Shown one piece after another: positions 2,069-55,106 of a DNA stretch of 55,307 bases (position 1 is the first letter of the stretch; the number at the start of each line of letters is the position of its first letter). This stretch comes from a virus. Its lineage: Duplodnaviria; Caudoviricetes. The stretch lies in the IMG/VR virus record IMGVR_UViG_3300033143_003628, positions 1 to 55,307 of that record; one strand, given 5' to 3'. The position numbers and the translations under genes are program-made. The notes beneath the pieces are model-generated. The model saw only the letters and a program-made list of their open reading frames with translations, searched no databases and was not told the origin of the DNA.

Positions 2069-2268
2069 AAATTAAAAGCATTAAAAAAGGTGAGTACGGC
2101 ACCATGTCGAGCACCAAGGGAACGGGCTGCACTAATAGGAAAGCCGAAGCGGACGGCATCGCCGTCACATTAAATACCAAAGAAATTATCTGTGGTAGTG
2201 TTTTTATTTCCGCAGAACAGCTTGCCGATATGGGTTACTTTTATGCCGAAGAAAAGAAGGGGATTTGA
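2065..2268 (+). CDS. hypothetical protein
   Basis: Overlapping stop/start at both ends. Confidence 0.6.
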   Translation: MKIKSIKKGEYGTMSSTKGTGCTNRKAEADGIAVTLNTKEIICGSVFISAEQLADMGYFYAEEKKGI

Positions 2269-2696
2269 AAGTGAAAAATCGAAATCTAAAAAATAATGAC
2301 AACTGGGAAACTCCTTTAACATTGCTTAATGAATTAAATAATGAATTTGTTTTTGATTTCGATCCGTGCCCATTTAATCCTGATTTCGATGGGCTCACTT
2401 GTGACTGGGGCAAAAGAAATTTTATCAATCCGCCTTATACTCGAAAGTTGAAAGAGGCTTTCGTCAGGCGTGCGGCATGGTTTGCAAAAGGTGAAGGACG
2501 ACTTTGTGTTCTGCTTCTGCCGGTTAGCACTAGCACGGTTTTATTTCACGACGTTATCCTGCCGAACATTACCGAGCCCATTAGATTTTTGCGCGGGCGA
2601 GTAAAATTTGAGGGGATAAATACTTTTGGCAAACGGGTTACAAACAAATGTGACATGCATGATAGTATGATCGTCATCTTCGATGGAAGGATCTGA
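2265..2696 (+). CDS. dam: phage DNA N6-adenine methyltransferase (phage Dam family)
   Basis: DNWETP, FDFDPCP, NPPY catalytic motif and IRFLRGRVKF, all typical of phage Dam-family enzymes. Confidence 0.88.
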   Translation: MKVKNRNLKNNDNWETPLTLLNELNNEFVFDFDPCPFNPDFDGLTCDWGKRNFINPPYTRKLKEAFVRRAAWFAKGEGRLCVLLLPVSTSTVLFHDVILPNITEPIRFLRGRVKFEGINTFGKRVTNKCDMHDSMIVIFDGRI

Positions 2697-7169: not shown

Positions 7170-8342
7170 ATGACAGACCTTTTTGAAAAGATGAAAGCTC
7201 TTAAAGCTAAGAAAGATCAAGCAGCGCGAGAGACCCCCCAGGACGAGCCAGAACAGGCAAGTTCTGCGGGCAGTACTGTGCAGTGTCCATGTGGCAGTTC
7301 GCTCGCTGGTGAGTGTGCTGAGTGCGACGCAGATAATATAGAAGACCCGGAGATAGTTGCGAGGCTCAAAAACGTAGGTGTGAACCCGCCCGCGCCTACG
7401 ACTGCCGAGCTGCCGGATCTGCCGGAAAAGAAAAAGGCGGTTAAGCAGAACGCCGCCGGTACTTGTCCCTTTTGTGACAAAGAATTCAAAAATTTGAATA
7501 GGCACAAATGTAAAAAGAAACCTGCCGAGCTGAACGAAGGTACAAATGTGCGGACGGAAATCGTTGACAAAGATATTGATAGGCAACTGGACGACGAAGT
7601 TATAGTGGACGAAAGTAAATTCTATATTGAAGGTGTTGAAATTGTTTGTCCTGATTGCGGGATAGCTCAACTCACGATGCCATCGGCAGATGTAGAAGAA
7701 GGAAAATATGCTTTCATGTGTCTTAACGCCGCACGTAGAAAAGAATTTGTTGTTGATAATTCTAAAACATCTGGACCCAGTGTGACACCTGCCGAGCCTA
7801 AAGAAACTTTTGATCCCTGTCCTAATTGCGGCAGTGCTGCCACAACTATTGTTAACAAGGGCATGGACTCAGAACATTATCTTTGTGTCGATTGTAATCA
7901 GAAATGGAATCACGATAACAATGTGGCAAAGGTTAGTGTCACAAACGTAACAAATGTCACTGTGGCAGAGGTCAAAGAAGTGACAGAACAAGAACCAAAT
8001 GTTACCGAACACAAATTAGAAGTGACCTTCGACAGAACACCTGGCTTCGATTTGTACATCGATATTCTAATCGAACGAGCGCAGGACATGCCACAAAAGA
8101 TCTATTCGTTTGATGACTTCATTAAAAAGTTTTGTGACGAAGTAAATGAAGGAACGAAAGAAGTCCACTGGAAAGTGGTCGAGTACGCTAAGGGCGCAGG
8201 GTATTTGATTGCGGTATTGGAAGACTGGTTTAAGCAGAACGAACTGGATGGGATTTTAATTGCGAGTTCAAGTTCGTTAGAATTTTCTGTAGTCCAATCC
8301 GTACTAAAAAGAAATGCACGAAACGTGCTTCAGGGGGTATGA
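7170..8342 (+). CDS. multi Zn-finger protein with low-complexity linkers
   Basis: Several CxxC pairs; Val-Thr repeat segment. Confidence 0.75.
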   Translation: MTDLFEKMKALKAKKDQAARETPQDEPEQASSAGSTVQCPCGSSLAGECAECDADNIEDPEIVARLKNVGVNPPAPTTAELPDLPEKKKAVKQNAAGTCPFCDKEFKNLNRHKCKKKPAELNEGTNVRTEIVDKDIDRQLDDEVIVDESKFYIEGVEIVCPDCGIAQLTMPSADVEEGKYAFMCLNAARRKEFVVDNSKTSGPSVTPAEPKETFDPCPNCGSAATTIVNKGMDSEHYLCVDCNQKWNHDNNVAKVSVTNVTNVTVAEVKEVTEQEPNVTEHKLEVTFDRTPGFDLYIDILIERAQDMPQKIYSFDDFIKKFCDEVNEGTKEVHWKVVEYAKGAGYLIAVLEDWFKQNELDGILIASSSSLEFSVVQSVLKRNARNVLQGV

Positions 8343-44594: not shown

Positions 44595-45557
44595 TTAAGA
44601 AATAACGCCGTTAAAGAACGCACCCATGTCAGTGGCTACAACCTTCTGGTCATAAGCCGTTTCGCCTTCTACCCTGTCGCTTTTAATCTGCGGAATACGA
44701 AACCGTGAAACCCTGGTTCCATTTCCACCGGCACCCAGGTATCCGGACCATGAAAAAGTGTATCCGGCAGTGGGGAGCAGAAGTGACGGACGCGGAGCCG
44801 AGTAACAGAGCAGACAGTTTTTGCCAAACACGAAATCCATAGAAGCCGCAGCACCTTCACCAGCGGTGTCTTCTACCGCACCGGCGATCATGACACGATC
44901 GATCCCTAGCACAGAAGCCAGCAGATCTGTGTTTACCATCTTGCGCTGTGTCACCGAAATTCGATCCAGGAAATCCGCATTGTCTTGCAAAACACCCCAA
45001 ACCTCTTCGCCCAGTACCCATGTATTGGGTTTAAATCCGGTCAACTTCTTCATCTCAGTTATCTGCGCTCTGGTGTCCTTGATAGGAACAGAACCAGCGA
45101 CATCCCACAGAACGCCAGGTACAATATCTGTTCCAGTAGTTGTACCAGTCCACAGACCGGTTTTGAAATATCTTGTGGCCCAATCTTTTTCACGCCGCAG
45201 CAACATTCCGCGAGTAACAAACTCAGTCGCATCCCTATCCATATTAAGGGGTGCATCTGTGTTCGCTCTTAGCTGGTCGTCGATGTCCTTGTGAAGCGCT
45301 TTGACTTCACAATTATAACTTTCACTGCCCAGCGTGTATCCACTACCAGCGGACTCTTGAGACAATCCACGTGGCTGCGCATCGGTACGAAACCATTGTT
45401 TCTTGTCATAGGTGAAATATGAATCGGACTGCTTTGCTACCGGAAGATTCGGGAACACTTTGTCCGATATGAATTCGTTTTGGTCCTGTAAATACGCAAT
45501 CGAAATGTTCGTCAACGGCGCATTGATATGGACGTCACTTGGTGTAGGTTGAGGCAT
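44595..45557 (-). CDS. major capsid protein
   Basis: H...PLTNISIAY.Q, FP..PV.KQ, P.AGYTF.W; synteny. Confidence 0.88.
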   Translation of the reverse strand: MPQPTPSDVHINAPLTNISIAYLQDQNEFISDKVFPNLPVAKQSDSYFTYDKKQWFRTDAQPRGLSQESAGSGYTLGSESYNCEVKALHKDIDDQLRANTDAPLNMDRDATEFVTRGMLLRREKDWATRYFKTGLWTGTTTGTDIVPGVLWDVAGSVPIKDTRAQITEMKKLTGFKPNTWVLGEEVWGVLQDNADFLDRISVTQRKMVNTDLLASVLGIDRVMIAGAVEDTAGEGAAASMDFVFGKNCLLCYSAPRPSLLLPTAGYTFSWSGYLGAGGNGTRVSRFRIPQIKSDRVEGETAYDQKVVATDMGAFFNGVIS

Positions 45558-45571
45558 CTTTCATTCTCCTT

Positions 45572-46546
45572 TTACGGCAGATAGCCAGTGGGTGCGAGTG
45601 ACATAGAGAATAATTCGCCTGACGCTGCACCTGTTAGCGCCTGACCCCTAAAAAAGTTACCACTTGTGACGGGAATCCCCGCACCGTTTGCATCGCTCAT
45701 GATCTTGTCGTCCGGTGTCACAGCTGCTCCTGCTTTAACCTTTGTTACACCGCCATAAGCAACCGAACCCGGTTTCGCATTCTCGTTTGGAAGCAGAACT
45801 TCTGCAATCAAACCGAGGATTGCGAGAGCATTGCCCGAAACAAATTCCAACTCAGTTGATGCAGAGATAACCGGTGTGCCAGTATCAATATTCACATCCG
45901 CAGTCGAATCGAGTTCAATAATCGTTTTGATTTCCGCAGCGGTAACGGCTCGTATATTTGCCGCATCACCAGTTCCAACCGCACTTGCGGCCCAAGTCAA
46001 AGCACCAGTTCCGGCACCGACCGCGATGTCCATTCCTGAACCCTTGTCATCATGCGTGATAACAACTTGACCGGAAGTTCCGTCTGCAGAACAGCCAACA
46101 ACTTGCGCGTTAATTCCTGAAGCAACAAGTAGTGCCGTAGTAGTTGCAGCATTGAAAAGGACCGTCTGTGCCACACCATCGTAAGGTCCGCCCGTAAGCG
46201 TAACAATACAAGTCAAGGTGTCCTGGTCAGCGACTGCGTAAGTAGTCGTGTCCGTAATGGTCGCCGCCGCAGCGTCCCAGGTGCATGTGGCATTACCAAC
46301 ATTGTTCACATCGAGAACAAGTGTATCAGCCGCAGCCATGAGATACGTTGGAGCAATACATGCTTTTTGTACCAGACCCGTGCTAACAGGCTTGTCTTGC
46401 AACACGCCTACGCTCGGAAATCCGGCAGAACCATTTGCAGCTATCTTGCCAACACTGTTAATATTAACAAATGTAAACTGCTTGGCTGAAAGATCCCCAT
46501 CTGCTTCGAGAGCAGGAAGGATTTGTAGATTAGCTTCGTATGCCAT
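45572..46546 (-). CDS. capsid decoration/cement protein (DUF2190-like) with large insertion
   Basis: N-half A..DLS.KQF.FV...GVLQDKP and C-half G..KV.AG.A......SD..G...G.AL, separated by ~200 aa. Confidence 0.75.
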   Translation of the reverse strand: MAYEANLQILPALEADGDLSAKQFTFVNINSVGKIAANGSAGFPSVGVLQDKPVSTGLVQKACIAPTYLMAAADTLVLDVNNVGNATCTWDAAAATITDTTTYAVADQDTLTCIVTLTGGPYDGVAQTVLFNAATTTALLVASGINAQVVGCSADGTSGQVVITHDDKGSGMDIAVGAGTGALTWAASAVGTGDAANIRAVTAAEIKTIIELDSTADVNIDTGTPVISASTELEFVSGNALAILGLIAEVLLPNENAKPGSVAYGGVTKVKAGAAVTPDDKIMSDANGAGIPVTSGNFFRGQALTGAASGELFSMSLAPTGYLP

Positions 46547-46585: not shown

Positions 46586-47542
46586 TTAATTTACTTTCGC
46601 AGTGGTTTGTGCTTCATTCTCTTCAAGGTACTGAGTGTATAGTTCAGGACGTGCTTTCAAAACCTTGTCAATTGCTTTCTCTTTGGTGAGACTCAAATCG
46701 TCCGATTTCTCTACCAGACCATTCGCCATCTTCGTGATCTTACTCCATGCACTGGCACCGCCACCGCCGAAGTTATCTTGCGGGCCGCTTCCACCTTGAG
46801 TAGAAAGCAATGCCGATTTCTTAATCGCATCACTTGCACTCTTCATGTTTGTGAACTGCCCTTTTGCCATCTCAGGATCAACATCGTTGAGCTTCTTAAG
46901 CATAAGCCCTAGCTCTGCGGAAGACTGACCTGGAAAATGGGAAAGTTCGTCTTTGGCTTTCGTAGTCCACTGCTCGACCTCACGCTCGTCATTCACTTTA
47001 TTGAGAGCTTTTGTGACATCTTCGTTCTGCTTTGTAAGCGCTTCCATTCGGTCTTCTTGAGCTTTCATCACAGCTTTCAACTCGTCTGAAACTTCCGGCA
47101 TCTGATTCGCTCCTTCTTTGGGGTCTTCTTTTTTCTTCTCGACCACCAGTTCTGCACGTTGCTCGGGAGTTAAAGTTCCAAGAAACTTTTGTACCCCTTC
47201 TACATCGTACTCGGCTTCCTTCTCTGTCGCTACAAGACCCGCCGCAGCAGAAAGCGCGTTCAACGCCTCTTCCGGCAACTCGTCCTTATAAGCGGATAGA
47301 ATTCGAAGCGCACCTTTTGTTGCAGCTGTACCCTTCTTCGAAAGCTTTGCTTTCTCAATAGACTTTAGCAATTCAGTTTCGCCGTTTGCTTCCGTCTCTA
47401 GAACAGCTTTAAAATCTGCATCCATTTTTTCCTCCGTTTTTGATTTTGTTACAGGGAACCTTTTCTTTTTATTTGCCCCTGCGTCTACTATGCTTAATTC
47501 TTCCGCCATCAGACGGGTCATTGCTTCAAGCTCGCCCTTCAT
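46586..47542 (-). CDS. capsid scaffolding protein
   Basis: Charged coiled coil between protease and capsid genes; C-terminal PELY..Y. Confidence 0.75.
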   Translation of the reverse strand: MKGELEAMTRLMAEELSIVDAGANKKKRFPVTKSKTEEKMDADFKAVLETEANGETELLKSIEKAKLSKKGTAATKGALRILSAYKDELPEEALNALSAAAGLVATEKEAEYDVEGVQKFLGTLTPEQRAELVVEKKKEDPKEGANQMPEVSDELKAVMKAQEDRMEALTKQNEDVTKALNKVNDEREVEQWTTKAKDELSHFPGQSSAELGLMLKKLNDVDPEMAKGQFTNMKSASDAIKKSALLSTQGGSGPQDNFGGGGASAWSKITKMANGLVEKSDDLSLTKEKAIDKVLKARPELYTQYLEENEAQTTAKVN

Positions 47543-49173
47543 GCTCTGGCCTCTTGCGGTCCGATGTCTACAAATGTGACTTCGGGCATCATAGCTCTAG
47601 TGATAGGAACTCGTGCTCCGAAACCACCAGGACTGAACGCATTCAATTCACCGCGTTCGTATGCAGCCCATTCAGCATCACCGAGCCGAACACCTACTAC
47701 CCAAGACCCGGAATGAATGATGTCATCTCCAAAGGGTCTGCGTGTGACAGTATGCGGCAAGTTCTGCAAAGCTTTATGGTAATCGTCAGATGTAGGATAC
47801 ATCTCTATAAAAGATTCGACCAGCTGCGCGTTCGCTTTGATCGCGTGCTGTACCCCTATCACTCTACTACTCTGAATGAATTCATGTGCGGTCTGTTCGA
47901 TTGTAGCAGGCGGAAGCCAATCATCATGTGCGTCAAACTCTGGGCCGTACTTGCCGTAAGGGTCCATCACCACACCATAGACGATCTGCTTTGAAAGCTC
48001 TGCTTTACAAATAGGAACTGAAAAATCACAATCGTTACCCTTTAACTTTTGTTTGCTTATAAAATCAGCAAATGAAATATCGCCGAACCCTTTGTCTTGG
48101 CTTTCTGACTTATGAATCAGCCAGGTTGAATCGCCATAGGTTGGCTTACTCATTAAGTATCTACCGGAAAAATGACTGCCGTCAAGTTTAATCTCAAAAG
48201 AATTATCTTTGGCTTTACCTATTTCATACGATCCGGCGTCACCGTGTACTACCACTTCGGTAGGTGCATCCATTACATTCAAAGACTTTCGCAAATCGTT
48301 CACGCCCAGCAATAACGTGTTGTTATCGAATACGAACGCACCCTTCTCAAGCCCTTCCCACCCGTACCAATCAGACACATTTTTAACCCTTTCCGCGATC
48401 TGTTTTATTTTTCTTAAAACTTCACCGGAATCCTTGTATTTCAGAATAGTAGCGGGATGTGGCAGAACGAAGTCTGCGCTTTTACCCAGGGACGTATGTG
48501 TCAAATGCCCTAATGCAATTACCGTCTGGGGGTTCAAACGTGACAACTCTGCTTTGACCCAGGGCACCCATTCATGTATATCTGTAGACTCGATTTCGTG
48601 AGTTAAATAATTGGGGCACAAATGTGTAATCATCACTTCAGTTCGACTCAACCCAAGCGGCTTCAAATACTTTTCACAGAATATGTCACCTGTGTTCCCC
48701 GATAACGCTTGACCATTACTGAAATCTAAACGACTTGGGTTCAGACCTATAAAAGCTACCGGTGCGTTCTGCGGTCCTGCTGTTGGAACCAGTTCAATGT
48801 TCTTAGATACAGCTTCTATTAATGAACTTTTTCCTAACGATATTTCTTTACGGTTCATTTCGTCTGCGACACAGAACGCAGCATTGATAATACCATCCGT
48901 TGGTTTCTTTTTCTTCTGTGCACCTACGAACCATTTATCCAGGCTCTGCCACATCTTCTGCAAAGATTTATCTGACACATTTGATAACACTTCTGGATTG
49001 AGCGCACTAAGAGCTATCTTTTCAAAGGCACTGGGCTTAGGGGCCTTATGTGACAACTTACCGCCCGCTCGACCGCGTGCTTCCGCCCGCATACCTGCAT
49101 AGACCCACCCTGGCAGATCGCGTTTTGCAATACTCCATATCTCAGTTAAAAACTCTTTAGTCAAATCTGACAT
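47539..49173 (-). CDS. multidomain prohead protease (XkdF-like) fused to UDG-like and LigD-phosphoesterase-like domains
   Basis: C-terminal KQIVYGVV.DP...DAH.D...IE..AH.F...QH...VES...GSW...GEL.AFS.GG; middle GP..A..AFIGLNP...G..L.G.TG...L.P..VIALG...HPA. Confidence 0.75.
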   Translation of the reverse strand: MSDLTKEFLTEIWSIAKRDLPGWVYAGMRAEARGRAGGKLSHKAPKPSAFEKIALSALNPEVLSNVSDKSLQKMWQSLDKWFVGAQKKKKPTDGIINAAFCVADEMNRKEISLGKSSLIEAVSKNIELVPTAGPQNAPVAFIGLNPSRLDFSNGQALSGNTGDIFCEKYLKPLGLSRTEVMITHLCPNYLTHEIESTDIHEWVPWVKAELSRLNPQTVIALGHLTHTSLGKSADFVLPHPATILKYKDSGEVLRKIKQIAERVKNVSDWYGWEGLEKGAFVFDNNTLLLGVNDLRKSLNVMDAPTEVVVHGDAGSYEIGKAKDNSFEIKLDGSHFSGRYLMSKPTYGDSTWLIHKSESQDKGFGDISFADFISKQKLKGNDCDFSVPICKAELSKQIVYGVVMDPYGKYGPEFDAHDDWLPPATIEQTAHEFIQSSRVIGVQHAIKANAQLVESFIEMYPTSDDYHKALQNLPHTVTRRPFGDDIIHSGSWVVGVRLGDAEWAAYERGELNAFSPGGFGARVPITRAMMPEVTFVDIGPQEARA

Positions 49174-50211
49174 TTAAGTTCCCTTCCTTCTTAAACCTTC
49201 AGTACATTCACAATGGGGATGTGCGACCGGCCCCTGAATTGGACCTTTGATCGATTCGTACTCGCCACCTAGTGGAGCCGTCTTGCCATCTAATGAAGCA
49301 CAGATGTAACAAGCATCCGGCGGTGCCATCCATACTCGTTCGACTTCCGGCAGTATCCCTGCGTCCTGTGCCGACTGCCAAGCCGCTTGTCTACCTGCCG
49401 CTTGTGCTGCAATCGTTTCCGTTCGAGCTATCCGTTCGGCCCGCTTATGTAACAATTGTTTTTTATAAACATCTGTTAGACTATTTGCTTTGTCTCCACT
49501 TAAACCCGAAGCCAGATGTAGCTGTCTTCTATTTTCTACCGCTGTATATTCACGCTCGGTTAATCCGATATTACCTTCTATCTCGGCATAAATATATTCA
49601 GCTCTGTCACCATCGTCAAACCCCTGGGATAAAGTATCTTGAACTACTTCTAATTGCGGCTTTGAAATACCTTCTACAATAAGCTGCAACGAACGATTCC
49701 GCATCCAGTCCATTGAATATGGATTAACCGGAACCATCTGAATTTTAAAATCTACTGCCGCTTTTAATACTTCAACCGGATTAGGTTCTTCGAAATCATC
49801 CAGCGTGAACTTCATATTCAAATCGAAATTCTCATTTAGCAACTCGGTCGCTTCGTCACCTGACTCTTGCAGAACCTTAGTATAAGTGTTCTCTAATGTG
49901 TCAATGAATCCCTGCCAAGCATCAGGTGGCATCGACTCGTGCTCAGTAAAGAAAGGCAGAACTTCCATCAATGTCGCGACCGAATTCGTTTCGTAAGCTA
50001 TCAAGAAATCTTTTTTAATGGCAGGGGTCAGAAGTTCGGCCATCGCTTTTAAAAATCCATTACGAAATCTATTCTCGTACTTAGTAGCGATGGCGTATGC
50101 GTCCCGGCCCTCTTTAGTATTAGGCAGTACGGTCTGCCATGCCGGACGCCTCTGCCTACGCGCCTTGAATGCCCTGATACTTTTGTACACCTGTATTAGC
50201 GGCATCCACAT
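49174..50211 (-). CDS. minor head protein (MuF/SPP1 gp7-like)
   Basis: RAERIARTE, C.IC..LDG, HP.C.C. Confidence 0.85.
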   Translation of the reverse strand: MWMPLIQVYKSIRAFKARRQRRPAWQTVLPNTKEGRDAYAIATKYENRFRNGFLKAMAELLTPAIKKDFLIAYETNSVATLMEVLPFFTEHESMPPDAWQGFIDTLENTYTKVLQESGDEATELLNENFDLNMKFTLDDFEEPNPVEVLKAAVDFKIQMVPVNPYSMDWMRNRSLQLIVEGISKPQLEVVQDTLSQGFDDGDRAEYIYAEIEGNIGLTEREYTAVENRRQLHLASGLSGDKANSLTDVYKKQLLHKRAERIARTETIAAQAAGRQAAWQSAQDAGILPEVERVWMAPPDACYICASLDGKTAPLGGEYESIKGPIQGPVAHPHCECTEGLRRKGT

Positions 50212-53646: not shown

Positions 53647-54579
53647 TTACTTTCCCTGCAACAATCCAACAATATGTTCAGCAATCGCTTTCATAAAGTT
53701 TGGCGGAACACTGTTTCCCATTCGTGCGATCACTTGTTTATATGTACCTATAAATTGATAATCATCTGGATACGAAAACACTCTTTTAGTTTCATTTACA
53801 GACAAGCGCCTCGGTTCGTCAGGATGAAAATGACCAGAAGCAATGGTCTTTAAAACTGTTGGTGGTATCCTATACCAACTACAACGATAAAAACCAAAAT
53901 GTTCATAATGAGCTTGTCCTAACTTAGTTTCAAAATAATGCTCTTCATCAACTGTGCTTAATGGTTTACAATCACCTAACTCTTTCAAATCCTTTAACGC
54001 CTCTTTCAACAGAATCGGTTTTGTCTGTGGCTTTGGATGTGAAGGTTTAATTTCTAAATCCTTACGAATACCAATAAAAATCAATCGTGGCCGTGACTGC
54101 GGAACATTGTAATATTTCGTATTCAATATTCTTGCACTGACTTCATATCCACAAGCCTTCAATTCTTTTAAGCACTGAACGAAAATGATTTTCATTTTAC
54201 CTTTGACCATACCAGAAACATTCTCCATCACAAATGCTTTTGGCTGTAATCCCTGCAGAAGCCGAACATATTCCTTAAACAATTGATTTCTATTATCTGT
54301 AAAATCTCTTTTCCCAGAAATTGAAAATCCCTGACACGGCGGCGAACCGTCCAGAATATCTAATTCACCCGGTTGCAATCCGATTGTCTCTAAAACATTC
54401 GAAACAGACAGATCATTAATATCACCATGGTAAACATTTGTGTCAGGATGATTGAGCTTATACACTTCAACAGCATTGTCGTCCCACTCACAAACCAACA
54501 AAATTCTGCCACCAGCAAGCTTGTAACCCAAAGACGATCCGCCACATCCACTAAAGGTACTGACAACTGTGAAATTCAT
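53647..54579 (-). CDS. dcm: DNA cytosine-C5 methyltransferase
   Basis: FSGCGG, GSPPCQGFS, ENV, Q.R.R, GNSVPP. Confidence 0.95.
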   Translation of the reverse strand: MNFTVVSTFSGCGGSSLGYKLAGGRILLVCEWDDNAVEVYKLNHPDTNVYHGDINDLSVSNVLETIGLQPGELDILDGSPPCQGFSISGKRDFTDNRNQLFKEYVRLLQGLQPKAFVMENVSGMVKGKMKIIFVQCLKELKACGYEVSARILNTKYYNVPQSRPRLIFIGIRKDLEIKPSHPKPQTKPILLKEALKDLKELGDCKPLSTVDEEHYFETKLGQAHYEHFGFYRCSWYRIPPTVLKTIASGHFHPDEPRRLSVNETKRVFSYPDDYQFIGTYKQVIARMGNSVPPNFMKAIAEHIVGLLQGK

Positions 54580-55106
54580 TTGGGAAACTCGAATTCACAT
54601 TTGGGACACTTGCACATCTCAATATCGTCTGCAATCGATTCGTCATACTCCCTGCCAACATCGTCAGGAACATTTGTGTGCTCAATAATCTTTTTCAATT
54701 CGGTTTCGCTAAATCCCATTGCTTCAATAGATTCCAAATCAGAATTATTAACAAGTTGCTCAATTGCTTCTGCCAAAACCGTTTCGTCCCATTCAGCAAG
54801 TTCAGCGGATTTGTTATCAGCGATTGCATAAGACATTGCTTCCGTCGCATCTAAATCTTTTCTGCGAACTGCCACCAAAGTATTTGCATCGGTGTCAACA
54901 ATTTTGACATCTTTGAACCCGGCTTTTTTAGCGGCCTCCAGTGTTCCGTTTCCAGCTCGCACGACTCCATCCTTATCCACGAAAAGTGACCGGGCCGCGC
55001 CGAACTGCTTTAGCGATTTTTCTATTGCTTTGATGTTCTCAGCCGAGTGCTTCCTGGCATTATTTGGATCGGCAATTAATTCGTCTATTGAGATTGTTTT
55101 TGACAC
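54576..55106 (-). CDS. ParB/Srx-like N-terminal domain protein
   Basis: DP.NAR.H, SL..FG, AGNG..EAA, IADN...EL..WD, C-terminal CPKC. Confidence 0.85.
   Translation of the reverse strand: MSKTISIDELIADPNNARKHSAENIKAIEKSLKQFGAARSLFVDKDGVVRAGNGTLEAAKKAGFKDVKIVDTDANTLVAVRRKDLDATEAMSYAIADNKSAELAEWDETVLAEAIEQLVNNSDLESIEAMGFSETELKKIIEHTNVPDDVGREYDESIADDIEMCKCPKCEFEFPK

What the first reader, a model, noticed from the sequence alone, without database searches (positions are those of the whole stretch)
47539..49173. Prohead protease fused to DNA-repair-like domains (UDG-like and LigD phosphoesterase-like)
Seen: three modules. About 48800-48400 resembles family-4 uracil-DNA glycosylase, but motif A is GLNPS rather than GEAPG, HPA is kept and the Fe-S cysteines are mostly missing. 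About 48350-48110 (VVHGDAGSYE...FEIKLDG..F.GRY......WLIHK) resembles the C-terminal half of the LigD 3'-phosphoesterase fold, without the HYDFRL catalytic motif. About 47990-47620 is an XkdF-type protease. Known: head genes such as MuF and proteases can carry fused cargo that is packaged and released by proteolysis. Inference: the virion delivers a lesion-binding or repair module. It could shield uracil or abasic sites, or counter deaminase- or nick-based defences, and may act as a catalytically dead binder.
Basis: partly seen in the sequence, partly recalled or inferred. Interest (0 to 1): 0.72.

Follow-up and report, generated by a model that had tools for sequence, protein, structure and literature searches.

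The report
Phage head protease carrying UDG-like cargo
The head-maturation protease of this uncultured phage is fused to a stripped-down uracil-DNA-glycosylase-like domain and a broken remnant of a DNA-end-repair domain; this layout is common in uncultured phages and probably loads nucleic-acid-handling modules into the capsid, but nobody has tested it.

Summary
ORF 47539-49173 (-) encodes 544 aa with four parts.

- **Leader, aa 1-125:**
- **UDG-like domain, aa 127-269:** a uracil-DNA-glycosylase fold closest to family 4 and UdgX. It has GLNPS instead of GEAPG, keeps the HPA histidine and has no Fe-S cysteines.
- **LigD remnant, aa 308-380:** the last four strands of a LigD 3'-phosphoesterase barrel, without the catalytic His/Asp/Arg motif. 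Longer relatives carry the whole domain with that motif.
- **Protease, aa 381-544:** an XkdF-type prohead protease with a T4 gp21-like fold.

The gene lies between MuF and the scaffold in the head module of a complete 55-kb myovirus. The fusion is the rule in a large clade of uncultured phages. Relatives insert ATP-dependent DNA ligase, 2H phosphoesterase, kinase or methyltransferase domains between the same leader and the same protease.

I read it as a "polyvalent" head protein, a kind described by Iyer et al. 2017. The UDG and phosphoesterase cargo did not appear in the papers I searched. Packaging and delivery of the cargo, and any glycosylase activity, remain inference. This scan noted the same fusion earlier on other DNA (e1-3288664, e1-5350273). 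No cultured phage carries it.

The parts
47539..49173 (-). Whole gene: 544-aa polyvalent head protein (P0001). The start codon directly follows the MuF stop, and the stop overlaps the scaffold start (ATGA).
   Evidence: relatives match from residue 3-5 onward
48799..49173 (-). N-terminal leader domain, aa 1-125. All-helical, with conserved LPGW.YA...AAR..AGG. No known family.
   Evidence: model helices 6-124. 105 representative clusters carry it, and the match starts within the first 31 residues in 87 of them. No usable Atlas or PDB match.
48367..48795 (-). UDG-fold domain, aa 127-269. Family-4/UdgX-like but without an Fe-S cluster.
   Evidence: Pfam PF03167 E 5.5e-13. VIA 1l9g Z 16.6, rmsd 2.2, 142 aligned; 6ail Z 16.0. 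Foldseek 1ui1 7.9e-8. Family profile against PDB: 4zbx 6.8e-16.
48733..48747 (-). Motif A, GLNPS (aa 143-147). The family consensus is G-[AS]-[SA]-P-[SN].
48451..48462 (-). Motif B, PHPA (aa 238-241). His239 is present in 73 of 75 aligned proteins and Pro240 in 75 of 75.
48253..48366 (-). Low-confidence linker, aa 270-307. It may be a degenerate vestige of the first strands of the phosphoesterase barrel (WEGL... / NDLR aligned to WRGL... / HGDLR).
   Evidence: pLDDT under 50 for 269-311; MAFFT placement in A1; inference only
48034..48252 (-). Remnant of a LigD 3'-phosphoesterase-like domain, aa 308-380: the last four beta strands plus a linker helix. The His/His/Asp/Arg motif is absent.
   Evidence: strands 308-355. 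Local HMM hit hmm155-225, E 1e-13. Full domain of relative P0002: 3p4h Z 11.5, 3n9b Z 10.4. Top 7 Foldseek hits are all LigD PE.
47542..48033 (-). XkdF-type (Peptidase_S78_2) prohead protease, aa 381-544, with a conserved C-terminal tail (M529 P530 V532).
   Evidence: Pfam E 8.7e-15. T4 gp21 5jbl Z 8.0, rmsd 3.1, 112 aligned. Invariant D414 and H443; near-invariant H430, E453, H474, S488 and S514 are all present.
49174..50211 (-). Upstream neighbour: MuF-like head morphogenesis protein
   Evidence: Pfam PF04233, phrog_3517
46586..47542 (-). Downstream neighbour: scaffold-like protein with an invariant N-terminal motif (EVSLVD.GANKKKRFP type)
44595..45557 (-). Major head protein
   Evidence: phrog_1005 E 1.6e-81

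Best explanation
This is the head-maturation protease gene of a complete 55-kb myovirus, built as a four-part polyvalent head protein. The parts are a helical N-terminal leader, a UDG-fold domain, a gutted LigD-phosphoesterase remnant, and a C-terminal XkdF protease.

Shown. The domain identities are established. The gene sits between MuF and the scaffold. The leader + cargo + protease plan recurs across a large uncultured clade in which the cargo varies.

Inferred. The protease end brings the whole polypeptide into the procapsid together with the scaffold. During maturation the protease cuts itself and the cargo free. The N-terminal modules stay in the head and enter the host with the DNA. 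There the UDG-like domain binds DNA, or excises a base from it.

In this phage the phosphoesterase remnant cannot be catalytic and serves at most as a spacer. Whether the UDG-like domain cuts or only binds is open; I put it at about even.
For: Anatomy. Pfam UDG E 5.5e-13 and XkdF E 8.7e-15. The whole-protein model has mean pLDDT 82.4, with the UDG and protease parts above 86. UDG fold: Z 16.6 to 1l9g. Protease: Z 8.0 to T4 gp21. The full PE-like domain of relative P0002 gives Z 11.5 and 10.4 to LigD PE structures, with the next hit at Z 3.1. All 5 PDB sequence hits of its profile are LigD PE domains.

Context. The order is TerS-TerL-portal-MuF-P0001-scaffold-p324-MCP, followed by the tail genes. 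The same order is seen in 80 IMG/VR loci, where scaffold is found in 73, portal in 62 and MCP in 58 of 80; many loci are cut by contig ends.

Recurrence. 73 of 74 homologue clusters match the UDG part and 74 of 74 match the protease. 67 of 68 complete XkdF frames in the loci hold the UDG-like domain.

Variable cargo. Of 70 further leader-bearing proteins, 52 end in XkdF. 25 hold UDG, 14 ATP-dependent DNA ligase, 7 a 2H phosphoesterase and 10 a SAM methyltransferase. Single cases hold Zeta-toxin/RelA-SpoT, DHH, GNAT and others (my counts).

Selection. Mean pairwise identity is 0.41 for the UDG-like domain against 0.51 for the protease. His239, Pro240, Arg254 and Lys255 are near-invariant.

Literature. 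Iyer et al. 2017 state that an assemblin-like peptidase is always at the C terminus of polyvalent proteins and probably processes them at virion assembly (PMC5512222, passage seen).
Against: No call shows that any part of the protein is in virions or is cleaved. There is no cultured relative with the UDG part: in INPHARED only the XkdF part matches (29 records, 0 covering 80% of the query).

In my reading of the alignments to solved family-4 enzymes, with the roles themselves recalled rather than tested, the residues family-4 enzymes use for uracil are not conserved in this clade. The Asn position (184) is F23/N18/D8 and others, and His in P0001. The stacking Phe position (157) is L45/F20. The motif-A Glu is absent in most members. 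P0001 also has Asn where 68 of 75 have Arg153.

The phage encodes no ligase, AP endonuclease, dUTPase or deaminase that would complete a repair pathway.

The T4 gp21 match at Z 8.0 sits at the level the tool calls middling. The model's pTM of 0.45 means the arrangement of the domains is unknown. The loci were chosen by similarity to the query, so the 67 of 68 figure is biased upward.
Confidence: 0.5

Rival explanations
1. The protein is a late polyprotein that is not delivered. The protease merely cuts it into separate enzymes, which work in the infected cell on replicated phage DNA before or during packaging. The relatives' ligase, phosphoesterase and UDG-like modules would then clean nicks and odd bases from the packaging substrate. 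Nothing but the protease enters the head.
For: The cargo repertoire of relatives looks like a DNA end-healing and sealing kit: ATP-dependent ligase in 14 of 70, a full LigD-PE-like domain with H-x-D-x-R in 47 of 168 proteins in hand, and a 2H phosphoesterase in 7 of 70. The gene is in the late operon next to the packaging genes. It is recalled, not tested here, that T4 needs ligase and endonuclease VII for packaging.
Against: The fixed plan of an N-terminal leader and a C-terminal head protease around a changing cargo is what a trafficking device looks like, and is not needed for mere co-expression. Other cargo types (methyltransferases, RelA-SpoT, Zeta-toxin-like kinase, GNAT) fit host manipulation at entry, as argued for polyvalent proteins (PMC5512222).
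Confidence: 0.2
2. The UDG-like domain no longer handles nucleic acid. It is an exapted structural or regulatory appendage of the protease, for example a spacer, an assembly chaperone or an auto-inhibitor that is removed and degraded inside the head, like a scaffold.
For: There is no Fe-S cluster: no column has Cys in more than 8 of 75. There is no conserved motif-A acid or amide, and no conserved uracil-reading Asn. In this protein the neighbouring PE domain has clearly decayed to a remnant yet is retained, so non-catalytic pieces persist in this position.
Against: The motif-B His-Pro is kept in 73 and 75 of 75, and basic residues R254 and K255 in 73 and 75 of 75. The fold is intact at pLDDT above 90. 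It co-occurs with intact-looking ligase and PE domains in relatives. It is recalled, not tested here, that family-5 UDGs work without a polar motif-A residue.
Confidence: 0.2
3. The fusion is an artefact: an assembly chimera, or a missed stop or frameshift that joins two genes.
For: The record is a metagenome-derived virus contig.
Against: The same continuous frame is found in 74 independent protein clusters and in 67 of 68 complete frames in IMG/VR loci. There are no stops in the 544-aa frame.
Confidence: 0.01

Closest known systems
Family-4 uracil-DNA glycosylases (UDGa; PDB 1l9g/1vk2, 1ui0, 4zbx) and UdgX (6ail, 6ajo)
   Same: Same alpha/beta fold: Z 16.6 and 16.0, Foldseek 7.9e-8. These are the best and only strong sequence-profile hits in PDB (4zbx 6.8e-16). 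Motif B His-Pro is kept. The block after motif A that aligns to family 4 (ARGE.LVG..G..F...YL) is present in the clade consensus.
   Different: No Glu in motif A (GLNPS here; G[AS][SA]P[SN] in the clade). No Fe-S cysteines. The position aligned to the uracil-reading Asn of solved family-4 enzymes is not conserved. NCBIfam family-4 score is 35.1 bits against a cut-off of 125.3. It lacks UdgX's extra loop (recalled). It sits inside a head protein rather than standing alone.
LigD 3'-phosphoesterase domain (PDB 3n9b/3n9d/2lj6, 3p43, 3p4h, 5dmp; Pfam LigD_N PF13298)
   Same: Longer relatives carry a full barrel with Q-x-H ... H-x-D-x-R-x-E, collinear with HYDFRLE. Z 11.5 and 10.4. In some relatives it sits in one protein with an ATP-dependent ligase domain, as in LigD.
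   Different: P0001 keeps only the last four strands and no catalytic residues. The phage version has an insert of about 25 residues between the two His-bearing strands. No Pfam LigD_N hit reaches the cut-off in any protein scanned; the best is P0010, E 0.0072.
XkdF / Peptidase_S78_2 prohead proteases; T4 gp21 (5jbl)
   Same: Pfam match over the cut-off, the position between portal/MuF and scaffold/MCP, and a gp21-like fold.
   Different: It carries 380 residues of N-terminal modules. The catalytic residues of XkdF-type enzymes are not established in anything I saw.
Polyvalent proteins of phages with a C-terminal assemblin-like peptidase (Iyer, Burroughs, Anand, de Souza, Aravind 2017, PMC5512222)
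   Same: Many effector-type domains in one polypeptide, variable architecture between relatives, and a head-type peptidase always at the C terminus (passage seen).
   Different: That text has no occurrence of UDG, glycosylase, XkdF or DNA ligase, and its one 'uracil' is in a reference title. I did not see its figures or its online architecture list. The N-terminal leader described here is not named there as far as my term searches show.
Methyltransferase-XkdF fusions of cultured phages (Lactococcus P335-type phages, Rhizobium phage RHph_TM16)
   Same: An enzyme domain fused upstream of the same protease family, annotated 'DNA methyltransferase/prohead protease' (phrog_1530).
   Different: The cargo differs. 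Only the protease part matches P0001, at about 30% identity.

Membership tests
UDG superfamily (Pfam PF03167) | Profile match above the curated cut-off | tested here: met
   49.6 bits against 24.3, E 5.5e-13, aa 132-250
UDG superfamily (Pfam PF03167) | UDG alpha/beta fold | tested here: met
   1l9g Z 16.6, rmsd 2.2, 142 aligned. Families 5, 2 and 3 also score Z 10-14.
Family-4 UDG (UDGa) | Motif A GE(A/G)PG with Glu (motif recalled; seen in the aligned PDB sequences) | tested here: not met
   GLNPS at aa 143-147. The clade shows mostly A/S at these positions.
Family-4 UDG (UDGa) | Motif B HP(S/A) histidine | tested here: met
   H239-P240-A241. His in 73 of 75.
Family-4 UDG (UDGa) | Four cysteines binding a 4Fe-4S cluster (feature recalled) | tested here: not met
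   Two Cys in the domain. No aligned column has Cys in more than 8 of 75.
Family-4 UDG (UDGa) | NCBIfam TIGR00758 / NF040953 score over the cut-off | tested here: not met
   35.1 against 125.3 bits; 33.4 against 250 bits
Family-4 UDG (UDGa) | Uracil excision activity | not testable with these tools
   Needs an enzyme assay
LigD 3'-phosphoesterase (Pfam PF13298) | Profile match over the cut-off in P0001 | tested here: not met
   No Pfam hit for aa 251-388 at E<=10. Only NF007210 at E 6.9e-4, 18 bits against 989.
LigD 3'-phosphoesterase (Pfam PF13298) | Complete beta barrel | tested here: not met
   P0001 has only strands 308-355, matching hmm155-225 of 257. Relative P0002 has the full barrel, Z 11.5.
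LigD 3'-phosphoesterase (Pfam PF13298) | Metal and phosphate ligands His, His, Asp, Arg (HxDxR strand) | tested here: not met
   Absent in P0001. Present in 47 of the 57 proteins with a PE-like hit.
XkdF / Peptidase_S78_2 prohead protease | Profile match over the cut-off | tested here: met
   55.3 bits against 24, covering profile positions 5-123 of 126
XkdF / Peptidase_S78_2 prohead protease | Place in the head module between portal/MuF and scaffold/MCP | tested here: met
XkdF / Peptidase_S78_2 prohead protease | Assemblin/gp21-like fold | tested here: inconclusive
   5jbl Z 8.0, rmsd 3.1, 112 aligned. It is the only non-UDG, non-helical match, but sits at the tool's middling level, and the model exceeds 400 residues.
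XkdF / Peptidase_S78_2 prohead protease | Proteolytic activity and catalytic residues | not testable with these tools
   The clade-invariant D414 and H443, and S488 and S514, are present, but which of them are catalytic is not known to me
Phage polyvalent proteins (Iyer et al. 2017) | Several effector-type domains in one polypeptide, with architecture varying among relatives | tested here: met
Phage polyvalent proteins (Iyer et al. 2017) | Head-type peptidase at the C terminus | tested here: met
   passage in PMC5512222
Phage polyvalent proteins (Iyer et al. 2017) | Packaged and delivered to the host with the DNA | not testable with these tools
   Needs virion proteomics or infection assays

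The most novel reading that the evidence does not exclude
A widespread clade of uncultured tailed phages uses its prohead protease as a loading device. A conserved N-terminal leader and the C-terminal protease bracket a changeable kit: a UDG-like domain, a LigD-type 3'-phosphoesterase, an ATP-dependent ligase, a 2H phosphoesterase, a kinase or a methyltransferase. The kit is packed into the capsid and injected with the genome, so the incoming DNA arrives with its own lesion-recognition and end-repair enzymes against host deaminase, glycosylase or nickase defences. The UDG-like domain would then be a new, Fe-S-free UDG family whose base-reading residues diversify under that conflict. In this phage it would act as a MUG-like (Asn-type) glycosylase or as a lesion shield.
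Probability: 0.25. Interest if true: 0.75.

Novelty: new variant of a known kind. Interest (0 to 1): 0.5.

Why it matters
If the cargo is really packaged, these phages carry DNA-handling enzymes inside the capsid by a route not demonstrated so far, namely fusion to the maturation protease. The UDG-like domain would define a phage-specific branch of the UDG superfamily without an Fe-S cluster, whose substrate is unknown.

The family also gives a natural series for study. The same leader and the same protease carry different cargo, and the phosphoesterase domain is intact in some members and decayed in others. That series could show how capsid-delivered proteins are targeted, cut and exchanged. 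In practical terms, the leader + protease frame might serve to load chosen proteins into phage heads.

For this one gene the result is more modest. It is a reduced member of that family, and one of its cargo domains is already a relic.

Tried and rejected
1. **Complex prediction.** The job set the leader (aa 1-128) and the protease (aa 380-544) against the first 120 residues of the scaffold. Its aim was to see which end docks on the scaffold's invariant N-terminal motif. No result exists, so the docking question is open.
2. **Scaffold N-terminus as a protease strand.** I suspected from memory that the scaffold's EVSLV..GAN motif resembles the last strand of S78-type proteases. A Pfam scan of all 38 aligned scaffolds at E<=1 gave only coiled-coil and low-complexity noise and no peptidase family. 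The idea is left unsupported.
3. **N-terminal leader.** The ESM Atlas gave no usable feature hit. Structure neighbours were only short helical pieces (uL29-like, TM under 0.5). VIA gave uL29-type helical hairpins at Z 6-7, which is non-specific. Its function stays unknown. It was not folded alone.
4. **Leader-bearing proteins without XkdF.** I looked for the genomic context of P0093 and P0076 and found too few loci. One locus (L083) lies on the same contig, just upstream of a UDG-protease match (L080), so some of these proteins may simply be cut at contig ends.
5. **Cultured or named hosts.** INPHARED shows only XkdF-part matches. GTDB genomes gave five MAG contigs and no isolate. Cultured phages with a related capsid protein (about 42% identity) were inspected once: Roseobacter phage RDJL6 has no annotated protease or UDG upstream of the capsid-related gene. 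I did not translate that region myself.
6. **Literature.** Searches found no paper describing a UDG- or LigD-PE-protease fusion. The library covers only CC-licensed PMC papers and bioRxiv.
7. **Fold searches and protease sequence matches.** The family profile found no PDB sequence match for the protease part.
8. **Model coordinates.** They are not available to scripts, so I could not check whether N145 and H239 face one pocket.
Full report
**What is there.** The window is a whole IMG/VR virus record of 55,307 bases, rated 100% complete and linear. Its minus-strand half holds a myovirus structural module. The order is small and large terminase, Mu-type portal, MuF, the gene in question, a scaffold-like protein, a 324-aa protein, and the major head protein. 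Neck, sheath, tube, tape measure and baseplate genes follow.

The finding's ORF, 47539..49173 (-), is a single 544-aa frame (P0001). It starts directly after the MuF stop and ends in an ATGA overlap with the scaffold gene.

- Pfam UDG matches aa 132-250 at E 5.5e-13.
- Pfam Peptidase_S78_2 (XkdF) matches aa 388-520 at E 8.7e-15.
- The strings GLNPS (aa 143-147), PHPA (aa 238-241) and VVHGDAGSYE...WLIHK (aa 307-355) are in the sequence.

**The UDG-like domain.** A model of the whole protein, built on 75 aligned sequences, has mean pLDDT 82.4 and is above 90 across aa 130-268.
- VIA-align places aa 127-269 on T. maritima family-4 UDG (1l9g: Z 16.6, rmsd 2.2, 142 aligned) and on UdgX (6ail: Z 16.0).
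- Family 5 (2d3y, 13.9), TDG/MUG (about 13.3), the UDG-like domain of a phage family-A polymerase (9qhs, 12.6) and SMUG (about 10) follow.
- Foldseek agrees (1ui1 7.9e-8).
- By sequence, a profile of the family finds only family-4 enzymes (4zbx 6.8e-16, 1vk2, 1l9g, 1ui0), UdgX entries (about 1e-8) and Blr0248 (0.04) at E<=1.

The domain is not a family-4 member in the strict sense.
- NCBIfam's family-4 models score 35 and 33 bits against cut-offs of 125 and 250.
- The motif-A Glu is missing.
- There are two cysteines, and no aligned column has Cys in more than 8 of 75 sequences, so no Fe-S cluster is possible.

Across the 75 aligned proteins, motif A reads F-V-G-[AS]-[SA]-P-[SN]. P0001's Asn at the third place is seen in only 2 of 75, and 13 have Glu there. 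Two positions align to the uracil-reading Asn and the stacking Phe of solved family-4 enzymes. Both vary: position 184 is F23/N18/D8 and others, with His in P0001, and position 157 is L45/F20.

What is kept is F141, G159, F165, Y169, L170, L173, A220-L221-G222, P238-H239-P240, R254 and K255. P0001 itself departs from its relatives at R153 (Asn; 68 of 75 have Arg).

I recall, but did not test, two points. MUG/TDG and SMUG enzymes use an Asn at the motif-A place where P0001 has one. Family-5 enzymes work with no polar residue there. The sequence therefore does not decide between an enzyme with altered specificity and a binder.

**The phosphoesterase remnant.** Pfam sees nothing in aa 251-388. 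NCBIfam gives a weak LigD hit at profile positions 401-449 (E 6.9e-4 for the sub-region).

The answer came from relatives. Eleven of 74 homologue clusters match aa 312-380, and in most of them the region between UDG and protease is about 250 residues long. These long versions read F.YQHHWRGL, then about 25 residues, then HS.HGDLR.E..DG.WGF.
- A profile of them finds five PDB sequences at E<=10, and all five are LigD 3'-phosphoesterase domains (3p43 1.8e-3, 3n9b, 2lj6, 5dmp, 3p4h). Both the HGDLRLE/HYDFRLE strand and the C-terminal LDG..L.GR....WL strands align in order.
- A model of the P0002 region (pLDDT 77, pTM 0.76) gives LigD PE structures as the top seven Foldseek hits, all at probability 1.00, while the next hits are below 0.2.
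- VIA gives Z 11.5 (3p4h: rmsd 2.0, 115 of 118 residues) and Z 10.4 (3n9b). The next chain scores Z 3.1.

A local HMM of the long form finds the domain in 57 of the 168 proteins in hand, in nearly all of them directly before the protease (P0075 has it upstream of the UDG domain).
- 47 have H-x-D-[LIVFM]-R.
- One full-length copy (P0019) has lost it.
- Nine, P0001 among them, keep only the C-terminal part.

In P0001 the hit covers hmm155-225 (aa 311-380). In the model this is four strands (316-322, 325-331, 336-342, 352-355) at pLDDT about 70-80, preceded by a stretch at 269-311 with pLDDT below 50. MAFFT places WEGLEKG and NDLR of that stretch under WRGL and HGDLR. This may be a vestige, but it is weak evidence.

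The remnant cannot be a phosphoesterase.

**The protease and the leader.** Residues 382-529 align to T4 gp21 (5jbl: Z 8.0, rmsd 3.1, 112 aligned). This is the only match outside the UDG and helical classes, though at a level the tool calls middling. BFVD neighbours are mostly proteins named XkdF, plus a haloarchaeal virus prohead protease. D414 and H443 are invariant, and H430, E453, H474, S488 and S514 are nearly so. P0001 has all of them.

Searched alone against 1.84 billion representatives, it finds 105 proteins (41 at E<=1e-10). In 87 of the 105 the match starts within the first 31 residues (my count).

Of the 93 proteins not already in hand, I scanned the 70 best with Pfam; the 23 weakest were not scanned. 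The counts below are mine.

| Pfam domain | Proteins (of 70) |
|---|---|
| XkdF | 52 |
| UDG | 25 |
| ATP-dependent DNA ligase | 14 |
| SAM methyltransferase | 10 |
| 2H phosphoesterase | 7 |
| D12 methyltransferase | 2 |
| No Pfam family | 11 |

Single proteins hold Zeta-toxin with RelA-SpoT, DHH/DHHA1, GNAT with a beta-lactamase fold, a nucleotidyltransferase, rhodanese or a C39 peptidase. The leader has no informative structural neighbour.

**How common, and where.**
- The word-indexed search found 74 clusters. By my count, 51 carry both PF03167 and PF14550 in the precomputed table. By direct phmmer, 73 of 74 match the UDG part, 48 the leader and 74 the protease.
- IMG/VR holds at least 110 loci. 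In the 80 kept, the order portal-(MuF)-fusion-scaffold-p324-MCP recurs: scaffold in 73, portal in 62, MCP in 58 and MuF in 22 of 80, with many loci cut by contig ends.
- Of the 68 complete frames holding XkdF, 29 are UDG-like + XkdF, 21 are leader + UDG-like + XkdF, 17 add the PE-like domain, and 1 lacks the UDG-like domain. These loci were picked by likeness to the query, so the share is biased upward.
- No cultured phage has the UDG part. INPHARED matches cover only the protease, several as methyltransferase-protease fusions in Lactococcus and Rhizobium phages.
- GTDB genomes gave only five MAG contigs.
- The phage itself encodes PolA, a helicase, exonucleases, Dam-type and C5 methyltransferases and a ParB-like protein. 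No ligase, dUTPase, thymidylate synthase, deaminase or second UDG was detected.

**Mechanism.** The fixed frame of leader in front and head protease behind, around a changing set of nucleic-acid enzymes, is the signature of the polyvalent proteins of Iyer et al. 2017. [quoted passage not shown]

I therefore read P0001 as follows. It is the phage's maturation protease. It enters the procapsid, cuts itself free, and leaves the UDG-like module in the head to travel with the DNA. Only the anatomy, the context and the family pattern are shown. Loading, cleavage, delivery and activity are inferred.

There are two live rivals. In one, a late polyprotein's enzymes act in the cell on DNA about to be packaged. 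In the other, the UDG-like domain is now only structural. An assembly artefact is excluded by the recurrence.

**Novelty.** Term searches in the held library found no description of a UDG- or LigD-PE-protease fusion. The 2017 paper has no occurrence of UDG, glycosylase, XkdF or DNA ligase.

This scan had already noted the same kind of fusion on two other genomes (e1-3288664, e1-5350273). Those are AI notes and not independent evidence, but they agree with what I found. This is a new variant of a known kind. The specific gene is a reduced member whose second cargo domain is a relic.

**Left open.** The complex prediction meant to test docking on the scaffold's invariant N-terminal motif (A3) could not be run because the queue was full at every attempt.

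Noticed in passing
window 47444-47521 (-), scaffold aa 8-33: The N-terminus of the scaffold-like protein carries the most conserved stretch of that protein: EVSLVD.GANKKKRFP-type, with S17, V19, A23, N24, F29 and K33 invariant in 38 relatives. It starts 4 bases inside the end of the protease gene. It may be a docking or cleavage site for the protease. Pfam gives no family for it.
   Followed up: partly
proteins P0077, P0082, P0098, P0108, P0110, P0116, P0118, P0132: Relatives of 1,180-1,630 residues combine leader, ATP-dependent DNA ligase, UDG-like domain, an intact-looking LigD-type phosphoesterase and the XkdF protease in one frame. Some add 2H phosphoesterase, SAM methyltransferase or GNAT domains. 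This is a LigD-like ligase + phosphoesterase pairing inside a phage head protein.
   Followed up: partly
proteins P0093, P0076, P0103, P0145: The same N-terminal leader heads proteins with no detected XkdF domain: Zeta-toxin-like kinase + RelA-SpoT, methyltransferase + rhodanese, D12 methyltransferase, and C39 peptidase. Some may be cut at contig ends. One related leader (L083) lies just upstream of a UDG-protease match on the same contig (L080).
   Followed up: partly
window 45572-46546 (-): The 324-aa protein between scaffold and major head protein matches relatives only in its last 60 or so residues (phrog_673, 'head scaffolding'). In many related loci the matching open frame (stop to stop) is only about 130 residues. 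This phage has an extra Ala/Thr/Gly-rich N-terminal extension of about 190 residues.
   Followed up: no
window 53647-55106 (-): A C5 cytosine methyltransferase (Pfam E 3e-69) and a ParB-like nuclease-domain protein sit directly upstream of the small terminase. A Dam-type methyltransferase lies at 2265-2696 (+).
   Followed up: no
window 7170-8342 (+): A 390-aa protein has a weak Lar-type (restriction alleviation) zinc-ribbon match at aa 214-244, E 2.2e-4 and below the cut-off.
   Followed up: no
PDB 9qhs: The UDG-like domain also resembles (Z 12.6) the N-terminal domain of a phage family-A DNA polymerase solved with a modified template. Several BFVD neighbours are phage polymerases with such a domain, so phages reuse this fold in more than one non-repair setting.
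   Followed up: no
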